IMG/VR virus record: IMGVR_UViG_3300002301_000006
Coordinates: 1-37,411 of that record
DNA length: 37,411 bases
Direction: 5' to 3' (one strand)
Source of the DNA: a virus
Below the pieces are notes generated by a model. It made no database searches and was not told where the DNA came from. It was given only the letters and a program-made list of their open reading frames with translations. A program made the translations under genes and the position numbers. Numbering within the stretch: the stretch's first letter is position 1; the number at the start of each line of letters is the position of its first letter. Positions 8,860-11,412 of the stretch are shown here, one piece after another.

Positions 8860-9084
8860 ATGGCAGCATCGGACATCATTCAACAAATACTAGACAAATC
8901 TAAGATGAGTCGTCATGACTTAGGACGCGCGCTCGGATTGCAAGGGCGCTGCATTATTACCATGTATCTCAAGGGTAAACGGTTTCCTGGCTGGCACACC
9001 TGGCAGAAAATAATTGAAGTCTGCAAGCAGAATGATATCGACATTACATTTGATATGATGCGCGAGAATGACAAAGCTAGTTGA
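8860..9084 (+). CDS. Small HTH DNA-binding regulator (74 aa, Cro/CI-like placement)
   Basis: The SRHDLGRALGLQGRCIITMYLKG segment fits a helix-turn-helix. It is a lone plus-strand gene divergent from the minus-strand unit. Confidence 0.55.
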   Translation: MAASDIIQQILDKSKMSRHDLGRALGLQGRCIITMYLKGKRFPGWHTWQKIIEVCKQNDIDITFDMMRENDKAS

Positions 9085-9093
9085 TCACTTATT

Positions 9094-9119
9094 GGCGGCC
9101 CCAAGGAATTAAGGCCGCC
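9094..9119. terminator. Hairpin between convergent genes, a possible bidirectional terminator
   Basis: GGCGGCC (9094-9100) pairs with GGCCGCC (9113-9119). There is no clear U-tract on either strand. Confidence 0.4.
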
Positions 9120-9147: not shown

Positions 9148-9354
9148 TTACTTCTTTTTCTTTTTGCCTTTCATTTTTTCTTTTTCTTCGTGGTCTTTTT
9201 TCATTTGTTTAACTCCCTTTTTCAATGTTTGAATTTCTTTTTGCAAAACGATTAAAACTTGTTTCAGCTCTTTTTTTGTAACATAACTAACATTTTTTGG
9301 CATTACTTTTCTCTCTTTTTCGTTGAAATTGTTACCACCTCTGGTGGCCGTCAC
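9148..9354 (-). CDS. Lysine-rich small protein; the likely start is ATG 9303 (51 aa)
   Basis: MPKNVSYVTKKELKQ...KGKKKKK. The track start at 9354 would run into the G+C-rich hairpin region. Confidence 0.5.
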   Translation of the reverse strand: MTATRGGNNFNEKERKVMPKNVSYVTKKELKQVLIVLQKEIQTLKKGVKQMKKDHEEKEKMKGKKKKK

Positions 9355-9605
9355 GCCTAGTTTCCGGTCGCAAGTTTTCCGGCGTTCTACTAACCCTATT
9401 TAGGTACCGTTTCCACCCCCGCAACACTGGATTAACGGGAGCAGCGTCTGCATCTTTTTCAAGATGCAGTCCAGTGCTAGAACTGGCGGGTGAACAATGC
9501 GCGTACTTTTTATTGCCGAGTGGCCTGGGCTAATCCCATTCGCGCGTACTACTTTCATCACCCGTAAATCGGTGGCAATCGGCCGGAATTGCACCGGCTG
9601 CAACT
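9341..9605 (-). ncRNA. Candidate structured non-coding RNA of unassigned family (strand inferred from local transcription)
   Basis: No convincing CDS. Hand count gives 127/240 G+C in 9361-9600 against 16/60 in 9181-9240. There are many helices, including a perfect 9-bp stem with a GAAA tetraloop (9469-9461 with 9456-9448). Confidence 0.3.
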
Positions 9606-9666
9606 AAACTATTAGAATGGTCAATCCTATCTGCTAGTTCTTTTACCTAATCTAATGACCGAGATA

Positions 9667-9700
9667 TAGGGTGTCACTGTCCACGCCGCGATTGCCATAA
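9667..9700 (-). repeat. Box copy 2 of a ~33-nt direct repeat flanking ORF 9709..9909
   Basis: The minus-strand reading is TTATGGCAATCGCGGCGTGGACAGTGACACCCTA. It matches 24 of the first 32 positions of the copy at 9928-9962. Confidence 0.7.
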
Positions 9701-9708
9701 CTCATTGT

Positions 9709-9909
9709 TTATGCTTTCTTTAACTCTACATTCGCACGTAATAATATTTTATTTCTATCATCAGCATGATCGACAGCCCACGTCACGTGTAAAACTTCAT
9801 ACGTAATATTTTTTATATTTATAAACTCTCCTTGTCGCGGAGCTATATCATCTTTCAATGAAGCGATAAATTTATCAGAAGATTCAATATAAAATTCTAT
9901 CTTAGCCAT
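9709..9909 (-). CDS. Hypothetical protein (66 aa) flanked by the direct-repeat boxes
   Basis: GAGGGA lies upstream of the ATG. It is the only clean ORF between the tRNA and the G+C-rich block. Confidence 0.55.
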   Translation of the reverse strand: MAKIEFYIESSDKFIASLKDDIAPRQGEFINIKNITYEVLHVTWAVDHADDRNKILLRANVELKKA

Positions 9910-9927
9910 TTATAATCCCTCAATTTA

Positions 9928-9962
9928 CGCGTGCGTCGCTGTCCGCACCGCTACTACCATAA
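9928..9962 (-). repeat. Box copy 1 of the ~33-nt direct repeat
   Basis: The minus-strand reading is TTATGGTAGTAGCGGTGCGGACAGCGACGCACGCG, containing the stem GTGCG/CGCAC around the loop GACAGCGA. Confidence 0.7.
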
Positions 9963-10084
9963 TCTTTTAGAGATCGGCCAGTGTGTATGTGCTGGCATTT
10001 CCAACTTTCAGGGAAGGAGTCTTAACATTTAGACGACGATCTCCTCCGAGTGCAGCAATATCATTGCTACTGCTCGACACTCTT

Positions 10085-10156
10085 TCAGAGGCGCAAGAAT
10101 CGAACTTGCGATCTCTTGGTTCCAAGCCAAGCGCGATACCACTTCGCTAGCCTCTG
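10085..10156 (-). tRNA. tRNA-Pro, anticodon UGG, 72 nt, no encoded CCA
   Basis: Hand-folded cloverleaf: CAGAGGC TA GCGA AGTGGTA TCGC G CTTGG CTTGGAA CCAAG AGATC GCAAG TTCGATT CTTGC GCCTCTG A. C1-G72 and A73 fit bacterial tRNA-Pro. Confidence 0.9.
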
Positions 10157-10157
10157 T

Positions 10158-10268
10158 TTAAAAACATATCAGAAATATTTTTAATAAATATAGTATCGCC
10201 ATTCCACTTGCAAAAACTGCAACAAAACACACTAGAAATATCGCTAATAAGTTCGCCAATAATTCCAT
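10158..10268 (-). CDS. Possible 36-aa single-pass membrane peptide
   Basis: ATG 10268 with AGGTGA upstream, MELLANLLAIFLVCFVAVFASGMAILYLL.... The longer track ORF overlaps the lipoprotein gene. Confidence 0.35.
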   Translation of the reverse strand: MELLANLLAIFLVCFVAVFASGMAILYLLKIFLICF

Positions 10269-10736: not shown

Positions 10737-10904
10737 ATGACTAAAAATATTTGCTGTGTCTTCGACTGTGATCGACCCGTCAGGGTTAAATCGCATCAGT
10801 TGTGTTCTCCTCACTATTTGCGATATTACCGGACCGGAAAAGTGGGGAGTGCGCCGATTAGAGTTTTAAATAAATTAATGCCATATAAAAAGGAAAAAAA
10901 ATGA
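10737..10904 (+). CDS. 55-aa Cys/His protein resembling only the N-terminal zinc module of HNH/Endo VII-type endonucleases, possibly a remnant
   Basis: Not in the track. MTKNICCVFDCDRPVRVKSHQLCSPHYLRYYRTGKVG... parallels CKIEGCIKKRYSRNSTCGMHKTRYERYG in the 29818..30408 protein. AAGAGG RBS; its TGA overlaps the next ATG. Confidence 0.45.
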   Translation: MTKNICCVFDCDRPVRVKSHQLCSPHYLRYYRTGKVGSAPIRVLNKLMPYKKEKK

Positions 10905-11104
10905 AACTATTGGAAATCATCCAAGATTCGACAAGCTTAGATAATTTTATCAGGATTAAGCGCTCTCAGTGGAATTTTTTTTTAGTGAAGCCTGCTTTTA
11001 TTATTGACCCTCTGATTAAATTAGATATTCATTCCATTGAAATGGGTAAATACACTCTAACATTTAATGATTTGATTGCTAACGATTGGGAAATAATGGA
11101 ATGA
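10901..11104 (+). CDS. Hypothetical protein (67 aa)
   Basis: ATGA coupling to the upstream ORF. Confidence 0.55.
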   Translation: MKLLEIIQDSTSLDNFIRIKRSQWNFFLVKPAFIIDPLIKLDIHSIEMGKYTLTFNDLIANDWEIME

Positions 11105-11105
11105 A

Positions 11106-11154
11106 AAGTGTAGAGTAGTGAGTGGAGGTAACTTCTATGCCTAAAACCACTCAC
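11106..11154 (+). repeat. Box-plus-hairpin element, left copy
   Basis: AAGTGTAGAGTAGTG is followed by the stem GTGAGTGG (11118-11125) / CCACTCAC (11147-11154). The loop holds the GGAGG RBS and ATG 11137. Confidence 0.5.
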
Positions 11155-11334
11155 AAACGCGAACGCAAAGATGCAGAACGGATTGAACCTAGCCCACGCA
11201 GTCAGCGGTTCTTTCAGGACGCACAGAAAGACCAAGGCGTGACGCAAAGCGTCAAGGTAGAGGTTAATATGCGCGAAACTGAAAGCTGCAGCTCGGGATG
11301 TTTTCGGGGCTTGAAAGGGATGTTTAAAAAATAA
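11137..11334 (+). CDS. Small basic protein (65 aa) in a locally G+C-rich segment
   Basis: GGAGG lies 8 nt upstream of ATG 11137. MPKTTHKRERKDAERIEPSPRSQRF.... Confidence 0.5.
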   Translation: MPKTTHKRERKDAERIEPSPRSQRFFQDAQKDQGVTQSVKVEVNMRETESCSSGCFRGLKGMFKK

Positions 11335-11368
11335 AATAGAATGTCTTGTTATTGAATAATAAGGATTT

Positions 11369-11412
11369 AAGTGTAGGATAGTGGGGTAGTTCGAGCTACC
11401 CACACTCACTCG
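11369..11412 (+). repeat. Box-plus-hairpin element, right copy
   Basis: AAGTGTAGGATAGTG is followed by the stem GTGGGGTAG / CTACCCAC with loop TTCGAG, then ACTCACTCG. It lies 24 nt upstream of ATG 11436. Confidence 0.5.

What the first reader, a model, noticed from the sequence alone, without database searches (positions are those of the whole stretch)
9341..9705. G+C-rich, ORF-poor, helix-dense block near the tRNA: candidate structured RNA of no family I recognise
Seen: the ~350-nt gap between minus-strand ORFs 9148..9303/9354 and 9709..9909 has no convincing CDS. By hand count it is 53% G+C (127/240 in 9361-9600) against 27% in the neighbouring line 9181-9240. Read on the minus strand, the local direction of transcription, it has many helices.
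- A perfect 9-bp stem with a GAAA tetraloop (9469-9461 with 9456-9448).
- GCCGG/CCGGC (9598-9594 with 9586-9582).
- CGGGTGA/TCACCCG (9564-9558 with 9493-9487).
- ATTGCC/GGCAAT (9579-9574 with 9517-9512), which crosses the previous helix, so these are a pseudoknot or alternatives.
- CACTGGA/TCCAGTG (9476-9470 with 9431-9425), enclosing the GAAA hairpin.
- ACGCC/GGCGT (9385-9381 with 9357-9353).
- CCACC/GGTGG (9347-9343 with 9339-9335).
Inference: it may be a phage non-coding RNA or a long structured leader of the lysine-rich ORF. Large structured RNAs next to phage tRNA genes have precedent (GOLLD, ROOL), but this sequence does not look like any family I can name.
Basis: partly seen in the sequence, partly recalled or inferred. 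Interest (0 to 1): 0.7.

Follow-up and report, generated by a model that had tools for sequence, protein, structure and literature searches.

The report
Uncatalogued phage tRNA-like RNA family
About a third of the flagged G+C-rich block is a roughly 125-nt gene for a tRNA-shaped small RNA from a widespread phage family that has an almost invariant 'elbow', a hypervariable core and no Rfam entry; the rest of the block has no relatives and stays unexplained.

Summary
G+C is 127/240 and 16/60 as stated, and all seven listed helices pair.

Comparative evidence covers only window 9573-9697 on the minus strand. That stretch is one member of a conserved RNA family:
- P1: a 7-11 bp terminal stem of free, covarying sequence.
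- A CG linker.
- P2: a near-invariant hairpin, GCGUG-GACAGUGA-CACGC.
- A hypervariable core of 29-190 nt.
- P3: a 5-bp hairpin with loop UGCAAUU, which abuts the 3' strand of P1.

Across 91 distinct sequences 98% of cells pair, and all 9 P1 pairs and 4 of 5 P3 pairs show double changes. A model built without the window finds the window copy at 63.7 bits.

Rfam 15, ARAGORN, INPHARED and a literature search give no match. The layout is tRNA-like, and the closest analogues are the T4 RNAs RNAC and RNAD, whose function is unknown. No homology to them is detectable.

Window 9330-9572 has no homologue.

Most likely this is a tRNA-mimic small RNA cut out by tRNA-processing enzymes, with a lineage-specific payload. 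Its function is inferred, not shown.

The parts
9573..9697 (-). Complete member of the tRNA-like RNA family, 125 nt from the outer U9697-A9573 pair. The 3' tail reads A-CC-G.
   Evidence: R1 gives 99.5 bits on the minus strand and 9.7 on the plus strand. R2, built without the window, gives 63.7 bits, E 7e-14. nhmmer finds homologues in 20 loci. The stretch alone folds with z = -2.9.
9689..9696 (-). P1 5' strand, GGCAAUCG (acceptor-like stem). It pairs with 9574-9581.
   Evidence: All 9 P1 pairs show changes on both sides, with 4-6 pair types each, in 91 distinct sequences found without any P1 constraint.
9669..9688 (-). CG linker (9687-9688) plus the P2 D-like hairpin GCGUG-GACAGUGA-CACCC. The window copy has one C.C mismatch.
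   Evidence: This is the most conserved part of the family. The exact 20-mer CGGCGUGGACAGUGACACGC occurs in 92 IMG/VR contigs and at least 120 metagenome stretches. P2 covaries in the P1-selected set, with 3 of 5 pairs changed on both sides.
9599..9668 (-). Variable core, or 'payload', of 70 nt. It has a hairpin with loop CGGUCAUU and a second hairpin whose loop holds UUGACCA, so a 5-bp loop-loop pairing GGUCA/UGACC is possible.
   Evidence: Only L013 shares this payload type. The two loops are identical there while the stems differ. The loop-loop pairing is an inference.
9582..9598 (-). P3 T-like hairpin GCCGG-UGCAAUU-CCGGC, stacked directly on the P1 3' strand.
Evidence: 4 of 5 pairs change on both sides. 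The loop is UGCAAUU in 71 of 87 elements although it was not in the search pattern.
9574..9581 (-). P1 3' strand, CGAUUGCC.
   Evidence: As for the P1 5' strand.
9330..9572 (-). Unassigned.
   Evidence: No homologue in about 380 fetched loci or by an IMG/VR pattern scan. R1 scores at most 3.2 bits. All 3 SNPs among 5 strain variants fall here, and two break listed helices.
9931..9962 (-). Orphan 5' half of a second family copy: UUAU-GGUAGUAG-CG-GUGCG-GACAGCGA-CGCAC. It sits directly upstream of the SD and ATG of ORF 9709-9909 and has no 3' partner strand.
   Evidence: R1 23.3 bits and R2 22.2 bits. No CUACUACC lies downstream on the minus strand.
9969..10044 (-). 76-nt degenerate tRNA-like fold: 8-bp end stem GGAGAUCG/CGAUCUCU, a UC linker, a 4-bp hairpin, and a 5-bp hairpin with a 10-nt loop that abuts the 3' strand.
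   Evidence: Found by a descriptor scan and folds with z = -2.7. ARAGORN, Rfam, R1 and R2 do not call it. The descriptor alone gives about 3 chance hits per shuffle of the region, so this is weak.
10085..10156 (-). tRNA-Pro(UGG), same strand, at the head of the cluster.
   Evidence: ARAGORN, and Rfam at 69.4 bits.
10187..10214 (-). Sigma-70-like promoter match, TTTGCA-16-TATATT, about 30 nt upstream of tRNA-Pro. It could start a transcript covering the whole cluster.
   Evidence: A consensus scan only, 9 of 12 positions.
9709..9909 (-). 66-aa ORF between the orphan half and the complete copy.
   Evidence: Called as a gene in 78 collection blocks. Weak match to phrog_4427, unknown function.
9148..9303 (-). 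Lysine-rich 51-aa ORF downstream of the block.
   Evidence: Called as a gene in related contigs. No family match.

Best explanation
Window 9573-9697 on the minus strand is a gene for a small phage RNA built as a tRNA mimic.

Its frame has these parts:
- P1: an acceptor-like terminal stem, where only the pairing is conserved, not the sequence.
- A 2-nt CG linker.
- P2: a D-arm-like hairpin, GCGUG-GACAGUGA-CACGC.
- P3: a T-arm-like hairpin of 5 bp with a 7-nt loop UGCAAUU. It keeps the U54, C56, R57 and A58 equivalents and stacks directly on the terminal stem.

A structured core specific to each lineage sits where a tRNA has its anticodon and variable arms.

Proposed mechanism, with steps marked:
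1. The RNA is transcribed within the early operon that starts at tRNA-Pro. Co-orientation is shown; the transcript is inferred.
2. The conserved P2 and P3 loops form a tRNA-like elbow (inferred).
3. The elbow lets RNase P and the tRNA 3'-end enzymes cut the RNA out at its AU-rich flanks and lets it accumulate as a stable RNA, as T4 RNAC and RNAD do (inferred).
4. The frame therefore serves as a processing and stability scaffold, and the variable core is the effector, probably a protein- or RNA-binding domain acting in trans (inferred; target unknown).

For: A family exists.
- nhmmer found the two conserved ends in related phages.
- A P1-based pattern scan of IMG/VR gave 21 distinct members.

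The structure is supported.
- In 91 distinct sequences 98.1% of cells pair. 15 of 19 pairs change on both sides, and 0 of 500 shuffles reach any of the five measures. Slid registers pair only 23-56%.
- P2 covaries in the set chosen by P1.
- G.U cells (about 26) far outnumber all other mismatches (about 5) in P1 and P3.
- R1 scores 99.5 bits on the minus strand against 9.7 on the plus strand.
- 85% of upstream and 71% of downstream neighbouring ORFs share the element's strand. Together these point to an RNA on this strand.
- R2, built without the window, gives 63.7 bits.

The layout is tRNA-like.
- P1 is 7-11 bp, the linker is 2 nt, and P3 abuts P1.
- CCA lies at offset 0-1 after P1 in 14 of 87 elements, against about 3% expected.
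- The flanks are AU-rich (G+C 0.33 against 0.575), and G is avoided at -1 and +1.
- Some copies sit in tRNA-array spacing next to real tRNAs: L003 Phe/His, L060 Tyr, L084 Gln, L200 Met, L211 Leu, L214.
- Tandem copies occur.

The payload is under selection.
- In the L022 sub-family the core sequence is almost invariant while a GAAA hairpin covaries.
- The window and L013 share loops on stems that differ.
- Payload MFE z-scores average -0.56 over 84 elements.

It is not protein-coding.
Against: - No expression, processing or end-mapping data exist. RNase P cleavage, CCA addition and stability are all inferred from shape.
- Neither the Rfam tRNA model nor ARAGORN recognises even part of the element.
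- U8 is replaced by C and position 55 by G, so the 'elbow' is a model.
- CCA is encoded in only 16% of members.
- 88% of members have no tRNA nearby.
- 87 payloads fall into 77 similarity clusters. That could equally mean the core is mostly unconstrained filler.
- No conserved partner protein lies within +/-5 kb. The best is AAA_24, in 25 of 147 loci.
- The alignment A2 was fitted to the model, which inflates the pairing percentages.
Confidence: 0.6

Rival explanations
1. The element is a cis-acting punctuation mark. It is a tRNA-shaped RNase P / RNase E site inside a polycistronic phage transcript, and its only job is to separate the upstream and downstream mRNAs, as in the mitochondrial 'tRNA punctuation' model. 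The excised RNA has no function of its own.
For: - The element sits in short gaps between co-oriented ORFs, with median gaps of 71 and 86 nt. In L013 it lies 5 nt after a stop codon.
- The conserved parts are exactly those RNase P reads: the acceptor/T stack and the elbow.
- The core is hypervariable, 77 clusters from 87 payloads.
- It often lies between the replication and packaging modules.
Against: - A minimal acceptor plus T-arm would be enough for cleavage, yet cores of 29-190 nt are kept.
- Cores are G+C-rich and more stable than shuffles.
- Within sub-families the cores show sequence conservation and compensatory changes.
- Tandem copies with nothing between them, such as L084, L010 and L232, make little sense as punctuation.
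Confidence: 0.2
2. One reading: the whole stretch of about 365 nt (9341-9705) is one large structured RNA, or a structured leader of the lysine-rich ORF.
For: - The block's MFE z-score is -2.2.
- G+C is high throughout.
- No ORF with homologues lies in it.
- The region is contiguous with the 51-aa ORF on the same strand.
Against: - Homologues end sharply at the P1 3' strand. In L013 the next ORF starts about 20 nt later, and in L003 a tRNA starts 7 nt later.
- 9330-9572 has no homologue anywhere.
- All 3 strain SNPs fall in it, and two break listed helices.
- No terminator-like site was found.
Confidence: 0.05
3. The conserved element acts as DNA. It could be a recombination or attachment site, a packaging or replication signal, or a hotspot for module exchange between phages.
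For: - A 20-nt core is identical across phages of 41-72% G+C.
- It lies near replication and packaging genes.
- Orphan 5' halves next to inserted ORFs look like recombination scars: the window, L009 and L183.
Against: - Three helices covary, which a duplex DNA site does not need.
- G.U pairs are tolerated but A.C pairs are not.
- Model scores are strongly strand-asymmetric.
- The element is co-oriented with transcription.
- The P1 sequence is free.

A secondary role of the conserved core as a recombination hotspot is not excluded.
Confidence: 0.05
4. The element is a working adaptor in translation or ribosome rescue: an unusual decoding tRNA, an allo-tRNA or Sec-like tRNA, or a mini tmRNA that is aminoacylated.
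For: - An acceptor-like stem, with N73-CCA encoded in 16% of members.
- 8+5 bp geometry in some copies.
- One member, L161, has a 5-bp stem with a 7-nt loop in the anticodon position.
Against: - An anticodon-arm-like hairpin follows P2 in only 2 of 82 members, against 1.45 expected by chance.
- The P1 sequence and the discriminator are not conserved (A 35, U 27, C 21, G 4), so there are no acceptor identity elements and no G3.U70.
- ARAGORN calls neither a tRNA nor a tmRNA at any copy.
- No conserved reading frame lies in the core.
Confidence: 0.04
5. The region is a decayed or unannotated protein-coding gene, namely ORF 9400-9603.
For: A 67-aa ORF with a TTG start exists on the minus strand.
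Against: - No homologue among 5.8 billion protein clusters.
- No Pfam match.
- Not called as a gene on any of five related contigs.
- It overlaps the conserved P1 and P3 of the RNA.
Confidence: 0.02

Closest known systems
Phage T4 RNAC and RNAD (species 1 and species 2 RNAs; AF158101 70908-71171)
   Same: - Phage-encoded stable RNAs of about 120-140 nt, on the same strand as tRNA genes and directly next to them.
- RNAC ends with a T-arm (CCGGG-UUCGAAU-CCCGG) that abuts a terminal stem formed with its 5' end.
- Function unknown after 50 years (PMC3014915, PMC9697503).
   Different: - No detectable homology. R1 with filters off aligns only the T-arm of RNAC, at 7.7 bits, and R2 gives nothing at E<=1.
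- T4 uses a canonical UUCGAAU loop and lacks the GACAGUGA hairpin.
- The new family usually occurs in phages that have no tRNA genes at all.
tRNA (RF00005)
   Same: - A terminal 7-9 bp stem, a 2-nt linker and a D-like hairpin with an 8-nt loop.
- A 5-bp T-like stem with a 7-nt loop stacked on the acceptor.
- An unpaired N73, sometimes followed by CCA.
- Array spacing next to real tRNAs.
   Different: - No anticodon arm; a core of 29-190 nt takes its place.
- C8 replaces U8 and G55 replaces U55, and the D-like stem is 5 bp.
- Neither Rfam nor ARAGORN detects it.
tmRNA tRNA-like domain
   Same: The 5' and 3' ends pair into an acceptor stem next to a T-arm, and a large structured insert with pseudoknot-like features lies between them.
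   Different: No G3.U70, no tag reading frame, much shorter, no ARAGORN call, and a true D-like hairpin is present.
Bacterial Y RNA YrlA (Chen et al. 2014, PMC4201824)
   Same: A non-coding RNA with D- and T-arm mimics, also found in phages. M. smegmatis YrlA is cut by RNase P and receives CCA.
   Different: - In YrlA the ends form the Ro60-binding helix, the order of parts is T, then a closed 'acceptor' hairpin, then D, and the gene lies next to rsr.
- Here the ends form the acceptor stem, the order is D, payload, T, and no TROVE/Ro60 gene is among the neighbours.
Engineered 'tRNA scaffold' RNAs and eukaryotic tRNA-like small RNAs such as mascRNA (recalled from my own knowledge, not tested here)
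   Same: A tRNA frame gives RNase P/Z processing and stability to an unrelated inserted RNA domain. That is the working principle proposed here.
   Different: Those are artificial or eukaryotic. No natural phage family of this design has been described, as far as the searches here could tell.
GOLLD / ROOL
   Same: Phage-associated structured RNAs, often near tRNA genes.
   Different: They are 500-800 nt and are in Rfam. There is no hit on the window, and the conserved unit here is about 125 nt.

Membership tests
New family (terminal stem + CG + GACAGUGA hairpin + variable core + UGCAAUU hairpin) | P1 terminal stem of 7-11 bp that encloses the whole element | tested here: met
   9689-9696 pairs with 9574-9581 (8 bp, plus U9697-A9573). 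P1 covaries across the family.
New family (terminal stem + CG + GACAGUGA hairpin + variable core + UGCAAUU hairpin) | CG linker followed by a 5-bp hairpin with loop GACAGUGA | tested here: met
   9669-9688 reads CG-GCGUG-GACAGUGA-CACCC, with one C.C mismatch in the stem that L059 shares.
New family (terminal stem + CG + GACAGUGA hairpin + variable core + UGCAAUU hairpin) | 5-bp hairpin with loop UGCAAUU directly abutting the P1 3' strand | tested here: met
   9582-9598 reads GCCGG-UGCAAUU-CCGGC, followed at once by CGAUUGCC.
New family (terminal stem + CG + GACAGUGA hairpin + variable core + UGCAAUU hairpin) | Significant score to a covariance model that was not trained on the window | tested here: met
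   R2 gives 63.7 bits, E 7e-14, at 9575-9695 on the minus strand.
tRNA (RF00005) | Detected by the Rfam tRNA model or by ARAGORN | tested here: not met
   No call at 9573-9697 or at any other copy.
tRNA (RF00005) | Anticodon arm of 5 bp with a 7-nt loop after the D arm | tested here: not met
   Present in 2 of 82 members, against 1.45 expected from shuffled cores.
tRNA (RF00005) | Processed by RNase P and ends in CCA | not testable with these tools
   CCA is encoded in 14 of 87 members. The window copy reads A-CC-G.
tmRNA | tRNA-like domain with G3.U70 plus an internal tag ORF, as ARAGORN detects | tested here: not met
   P1 position 3 is C-G in the window and varies freely elsewhere. ARAGORN makes no tmRNA call on any copy.
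T4 RNAC/RNAD | Sequence and structure homology to T4 rnaC or rnaD | tested here: not met
   R1 with filters off gives 7.7 bits on the T-arm only, and R2 gives no hit.
T4 RNAC/RNAD | Encoded in a phage tRNA cluster on the same strand, about 120-140 nt long, with a T-arm next to an end stem | tested here: met
   The window cluster runs tRNA-Pro, tRNA-like pieces, then the element. This is a resemblance in kind, not membership.
YrlA / bacterial Y RNA | Ends form the Ro60-binding helix, the order is T, closed stem, D, and the gene is next to rsr (TROVE) | tested here: not met
   The order and the role of the ends are opposite. No Ro60-like neighbour cluster was found in 147 loci.
GOLLD / ROOL | Match to the Rfam models | tested here: not met
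   No match at gathering threshold or at E<=10.

The most novel reading that the evidence does not exclude
This is a previously undescribed and widespread class of modular phage RNAs. An almost invariant, non-canonical tRNA elbow (GACAGUGA with UGCAAUU) docks the RNA onto a universal bacterial tRNA-binding machine. Candidates are RNase P, the ribosome, a tRNA-modifying or repair enzyme, or a tRNA-targeting defence nuclease. A hypervariable payload is the lineage-specific effector, for example a decoy or sponge used in the phage-host arms race. On this reading the old T4 RNAC/RNAD puzzle is one instance of a general strategy.
Probability: 0.25. Interest if true: 0.85.

Novelty: new variant of a known kind. 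Interest (0 to 1): 0.68.

Why it matters
Phage-encoded tRNA-like stable RNAs have been known since the 1970s from T4 RNAC and RNAD, but they have no known function and no broad family.

This finding defines a family with hundreds of members. It comes from soil, freshwater, marine, groundwater and bioreactor viromes, and from phage contigs of 6-225 kb and 41-72% G+C. It has a sharply defined architecture that can be tested.

The contrast within the RNA is unusual. A 20-nt hairpin and a 7-nt loop are conserved to the letter, while the terminal stem is free in sequence and the core is essentially unique to each phage lineage. That points to a conserved host-side reader of the 'elbow'.

If the scaffold-plus-payload idea holds, the family would be:
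- a natural counterpart of engineered tRNA scaffolds;
- a catalogue of phage RNA effectors;
- a route to the function of this whole class of RNAs.

It is also an easy addition to Rfam, and it would remove a recurrent 'intergenic gap' from phage annotation.

Tried and rejected
- **Rfam.** Gathering and E-value scans on the window and on 12 member loci found nothing but tRNAs.
- **INPHARED.** blastn and megablast with the block, with 25 kb of the window and with a family member found no relative. tblastn with the AAA_24 protein found only distant Streptococcus phages.
- **GTDB genomes.** The scan used GTGCAATTCNNNCCGATTGCC and gave 51 stretches, none a true member. In hindsight that pattern contained the window-specific P1 strand, so it says nothing about whether the family occurs in bacterial genomes.
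- **ORF 9709-9909.** No relatives by the search for related loci.
- **Protein-coding reading of 9400-9603.** Rejected.
- **Homologues of 9330-9572.** I tried nhmmer against all loci, an IMG/VR scan with the GAAA hairpin (9 chance hits, one inside a capsid gene), self-similarity within the window, and direct repeats. Nothing turned up.
- **Further decayed copies in 9330-9572.** The idea rested on 'GUAGUA' words. No repeat supports it, and R1 scores at most 3.2 bits there.
- **Loose structural descriptor (P1+P2+P3).** It gives too many chance hits, about 13 per shuffle, to be useful on its own.
- **Payload sub-family scan.** The pattern CGGTCATTAG...GATTGACC found only L013 and the window.
- **Apparent small ORFs inside long elements.** These are incidental.
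- **A conserved partner protein.** None found in 97 and then 147 neighbourhoods.
- **A larger model from A2.** I built R2 from 16 short members instead.
- **Literature.** Searches for the motif sequences and for phage tRNA-like covarying motifs found nothing. The supplements of the 10,006-csRNA paper are not held, so the motif may exist there unnamed.
Full report
**1. The observation**

G+C is 127/240 in 9361-9600 and 16/60 in 9181-9240, against 40.6% for the window. All seven listed helices are perfectly paired at the stated coordinates (profile).

The gap holds only a 67-aa TTG-start ORF (9400-9603, minus strand). It has no Pfam match and no homologue in the 5.8-billion-cluster protein search. 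It is not called as a gene on five near-identical contigs.

As a whole the block is only marginally more structured than chance. The MFE z-score is -2.2 on the minus strand and -1.7 on the plus strand. There are five perfect 7-bp stems against 1.7 +/- 1.7 in shuffles, and 34 of 500 shuffles reach five. Rfam 15 finds nothing there at gathering or at E<=10; the only real hit in the window is tRNA-Pro(UGG) at 10085-10156 on the minus strand.

**2. Finding relatives**

The window is a phage genome piece. It carries an AAA_24 ATPase, a DUF669/SSB-like protein and a VapE-like primase. It has no close cultured relative. Exact-protein look-up places it in roughly 37-kb contigs from a series of ENA 'GROS21-1' metagenomes.

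I fetched nine IMG/VR loci through the AAA_24 protein. nhmmer with the block then showed that only its 5' third (minus strand) is conserved, as two motifs about 100 nt apart. The motifs are AUGGCAAUCGCGGCGUGGACAGUGACA and AGCCGGUGCAAUUCCGGCCGAUUGCCA, and their outer parts pair with each other (sequences).

A gapped pattern on the two outer strands gave 21 distinct true members in IMG/VR, among chance matches. In L013 the element fills the gap between two co-oriented ORFs almost exactly. In L003 a tRNA-Phe gene begins 7 nt after it.

**3. Anatomy of the family**

From the alignment A1 the frame reads as follows:
- P1: a terminal stem.
- A CG linker.
- P2: the hairpin GCGUG-GACAGUGA-CACGC.
- A variable core.
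- One conserved A.
- P3: the hairpin GCCGG-UGCAAUU-CCGGC.
- The P1 3' strand, which abuts P3.

P2 and P3 were not in the search pattern, and they covary: 3 of 5 and 4 of 5 pairs change on both sides.

To remove the ascertainment on P1, I scanned the metagenome collection with the linker+P2 20-mer alone. About 0.1-0.5 chance matches are expected for a 20-mer, by my own estimate.

In these sequences P1 takes any sequence but stays paired, for example CGACUCAG/CUGAGUCG, GACUGCGG/CCGCAGUC and GGAACUCG/CGAGUUCC.

On the model-based alignment A2 (97 hits, 91 distinct):
- 98.1% of cells pair.
- All 9 P1 pairs and 4 of 5 P3 pairs change on both sides, with up to six pair types per position.
- No shuffle out of 500 reaches any of the five measures.
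- Registers slid by 1-3 columns pair only 23-56%.

A2 is fitted to the model, which inflates the pairing percentages. The diversity of P1 is nevertheless visible in the raw sequences.

Among 87 distinct complete elements:
- P1 is 7-11 bp.
- The P3 loop is UGCAAUU in 71, although it was not selected for.
- Lengths run from 80 to 244 nt.

Several facts indicate an RNA read on this strand:
- G.U cells (about 26) greatly outnumber all other mismatches (about 5) in P1 and P3.
- The window copy scores 99.5 bits on the minus strand and 9.7 on the plus strand.
- Neighbouring ORFs share its orientation, 85% upstream and 71% downstream.

A second model, R2, was built from 16 short members with diverse P1 and without the window. 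It finds window 9575-9695 (minus strand) at 63.7 bits, E 7e-14.

**4. Why 'tRNA-like'**

What the sequences show:
- A terminal stem of 7-9 bp, a 2-nt linker and a hairpin with an 8-nt loop.
- A 5-bp hairpin with a 7-nt loop that keeps the equivalents of U54, C56, R57 and A58 and stacks directly on the terminal stem.
- An unpaired base after the stem, followed by CCA in 14 of 87 elements, against about 3% expected.
- AU-rich flanks (G+C 0.33 against 0.575 inside), with G avoided at -1 and +1.
- Placement in tRNA-array spacing beside real tRNAs in several loci: L003, L060, L084, L200, L211 and L214.
- Tandem copies, with three in L232 and two in L010, L084, L214 and L226.

What is not tRNA-like:
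- There is no anticodon arm: 2 of 82 members against 1.45 expected.
- C stands at position 8 and G at position 55.
- The acceptor sequence and the discriminator are not conserved.
- Neither ARAGORN nor the Rfam tRNA model gives a call.

In the P1-selected set, the 15 copies with the canonical GACAG(U/A)GA loop all have UGCAAYU. Only 4 of 11 copies with other P2 loops do, and several of those instead combine a GG-containing P2 loop with a canonical UUCGAAU-type loop. This is my tally. It fits a D-loop/T-loop contact, but the numbers are small, and four metagenome members with U55 keep the GACAGUGA loop.

**5. The core ('payload')**

The core is 29-190 nt long. 87 payloads fall into 77 BLAST clusters.

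It is not mere filler in the cases that can be tested:
- In the L022/L027/L014/L218 sub-family about 50 nt of the core are nearly invariant, while a GAAA-capped hairpin and a closing pair change by compensation.
- The window and L013 share two loops, CGGUCAUU and UUGACCA, which could pair with each other. The stems that carry those loops differ.
- Payload MFE z-scores average -0.56 over 84 elements.

No protein family accompanies the element consistently. In 147 neighbourhoods AAA_24 appears 25 times, an SSB-like protein 13, portal 11 and terminase 8. Any reader of the conserved elbow is therefore probably a host component.

**6. The rest of the block and its surroundings**

Window 9330-9572 has no homologue anywhere I could look. 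R1 scores at most 3.2 bits there.

Five strain variants differ at 3 of 881 aligned positions across 9290-10170. By my estimate the chance that all three fall in this 28% of the alignment is about 0.02.

I regard this part as unassigned. It may be a lineage-specific spacer or leader, or the remains of decayed RNA genes.

Upstream on the same strand lie, in order:
- a promoter-like site at 10187-10214;
- tRNA-Pro;
- a weak 76-nt tRNA-like fold at 9969-10044;
- an orphan 5' half of a second family copy at 9931-9962, which runs straight into the SD and ATG of the 66-aa ORF;
- the complete copy.

**7. Comparison with known RNAs**

- **T4 RNAC/RNAD.** These are the closest in kind: stable RNAs of about 120-140 nt in the tRNA cluster, RNAC with a T-arm next to an end stem, and function unknown. 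Neither model detects them.
- **YrlA.** Its topology is the opposite, and it lies next to rsr.
- **tmRNA.** It needs G3.U70 and a tag ORF, and both are absent here.
- **GOLLD/ROOL.** They are far larger, and they are in Rfam.

Literature searches, including searches for the motif sequences, found nothing. A 2023 catalogue of 10,006 unnamed viral candidate RNAs may contain this motif, but I could not check that.

**8. Verdict**

The structured-RNA call is right for about a third of the block and unsupported for the rest. The supported part is a member of a widespread, uncatalogued phage RNA family with a tRNA-mimic frame and a hypervariable core.

- That it is a conserved structured RNA is close to certain.
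- That it is processed like a tRNA is a reasonable inference.
- That the core is an effector acting in trans is a hypothesis.

A caveat on distribution: the single GTDB scan used a window-specific P1 strand, so I make no claim that the family is absent from bacterial genomes.

Noticed in passing
window 9931-9962 (-); L009 2045-2070 (+); L183 (minus strand, core about 1066 from the reverse-complement start): Orphan 5' halves of the element (P1 5' strand, linker and P2, with no P3 or P1 3' strand) run straight into a small ORF, and a complete copy follows downstream. In the window the orphan's P1 and P2 sequences differ from those of the complete copy, so this is not a recent duplication. It could be a recombination scar at the conserved core, or a decayed tandem copy.
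   Followed up: partly
window 9969-10044 (-): A 76-nt fold with an 8-bp end stem, a 2-nt linker, a 4-bp hairpin and a 5-bp hairpin (10-nt loop) that abuts the 3' strand. It sits between tRNA-Pro and the orphan half and folds with z = -2.7. No tRNA finder or model calls it. It may be a degenerate tRNA-like gene, or it may be chance.
   Followed up: partly
window 9290-10170, compared with L277-L281: Five near-identical strain variants from different GROS21-1 samples differ at only 3 positions, and all three lie inside 9330-9572. None touches the tRNA, the tRNA-like element, the orphan half or the 66-aa ORF.
   Followed up: yes
window 11100-11410: A second G+C-rich patch (0.43-0.49) is overlapped by mechanical ORFs on both strands (11122-11334 plus strand, 11029-11409 minus strand). 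Near 11380-11405 on the plus strand there is a T-arm-like hairpin, GUGGGGUAG-UUCGA-GCUACCCAC, just upstream of the VapE-like gene region. R1 and R2 do not hit it.
   Followed up: no
L232 741-1323 (-), L010 4360-4651 (-), L084 5602-5832 (+), L214, L226, L186, L254, L208, L170, L359: Many phages carry two or three copies of the element in tandem, or within about 1 kb of each other, with different P1 sequences and payloads. They resemble small arrays.
   Followed up: partly
L182 2616-2895 (-) and L192 9374-9653 (-): ARAGORN calls a 280-nt tmRNA (tag ANENTPSLAEILFGCPVAEAADVCVPAFA*) about 1.2 kb from the element on the same strand. It may be a phage-encoded tmRNA.
   Followed up: no
L001 5187-5275, L006 7405-7515, L027 14187-14290: These are 89-111-nt tRNA-like RNAs ending in ACCA or ACCC, with canonical UUCGAAU-type T loops and long inserts. 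ARAGORN, run only on L027 among these three loci, did not call its copy. R1 hits them weakly (20-24 bits); R2, run on L001 and L006 but not L027, misses those two. They may be a related, more tRNA-like class in relatives of this phage.
   Followed up: partly
window 9094-9119: A G+C-rich hairpin, GGCGGCC-(12 nt)-GGCCGCC, lies between the convergent ORFs 8860-9084 (plus strand) and 9148-9303 (minus strand). It could be a bidirectional terminator, but no U-run follows on either strand and the terminator scan does not call it.
   Followed up: no
window 10737-10904 (+): A 55-aa ORF with a Cys/His-rich motif (CVFDCDRPVRVKSHQLCSPHY) matches only the first third of phrog_4160 (178 positions). It looks like a truncated HNH-type or zinc-finger protein next to the tRNA cluster.
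   Followed up: no
L161 (84-nt trimmed element): One short member has a near-perfect cloverleaf: a 5-bp stem with the 7-nt loop CUGUACA in the anticodon position, plus a variable arm. This hints that the family descends from a type-II-like tRNA.
   Followed up: no
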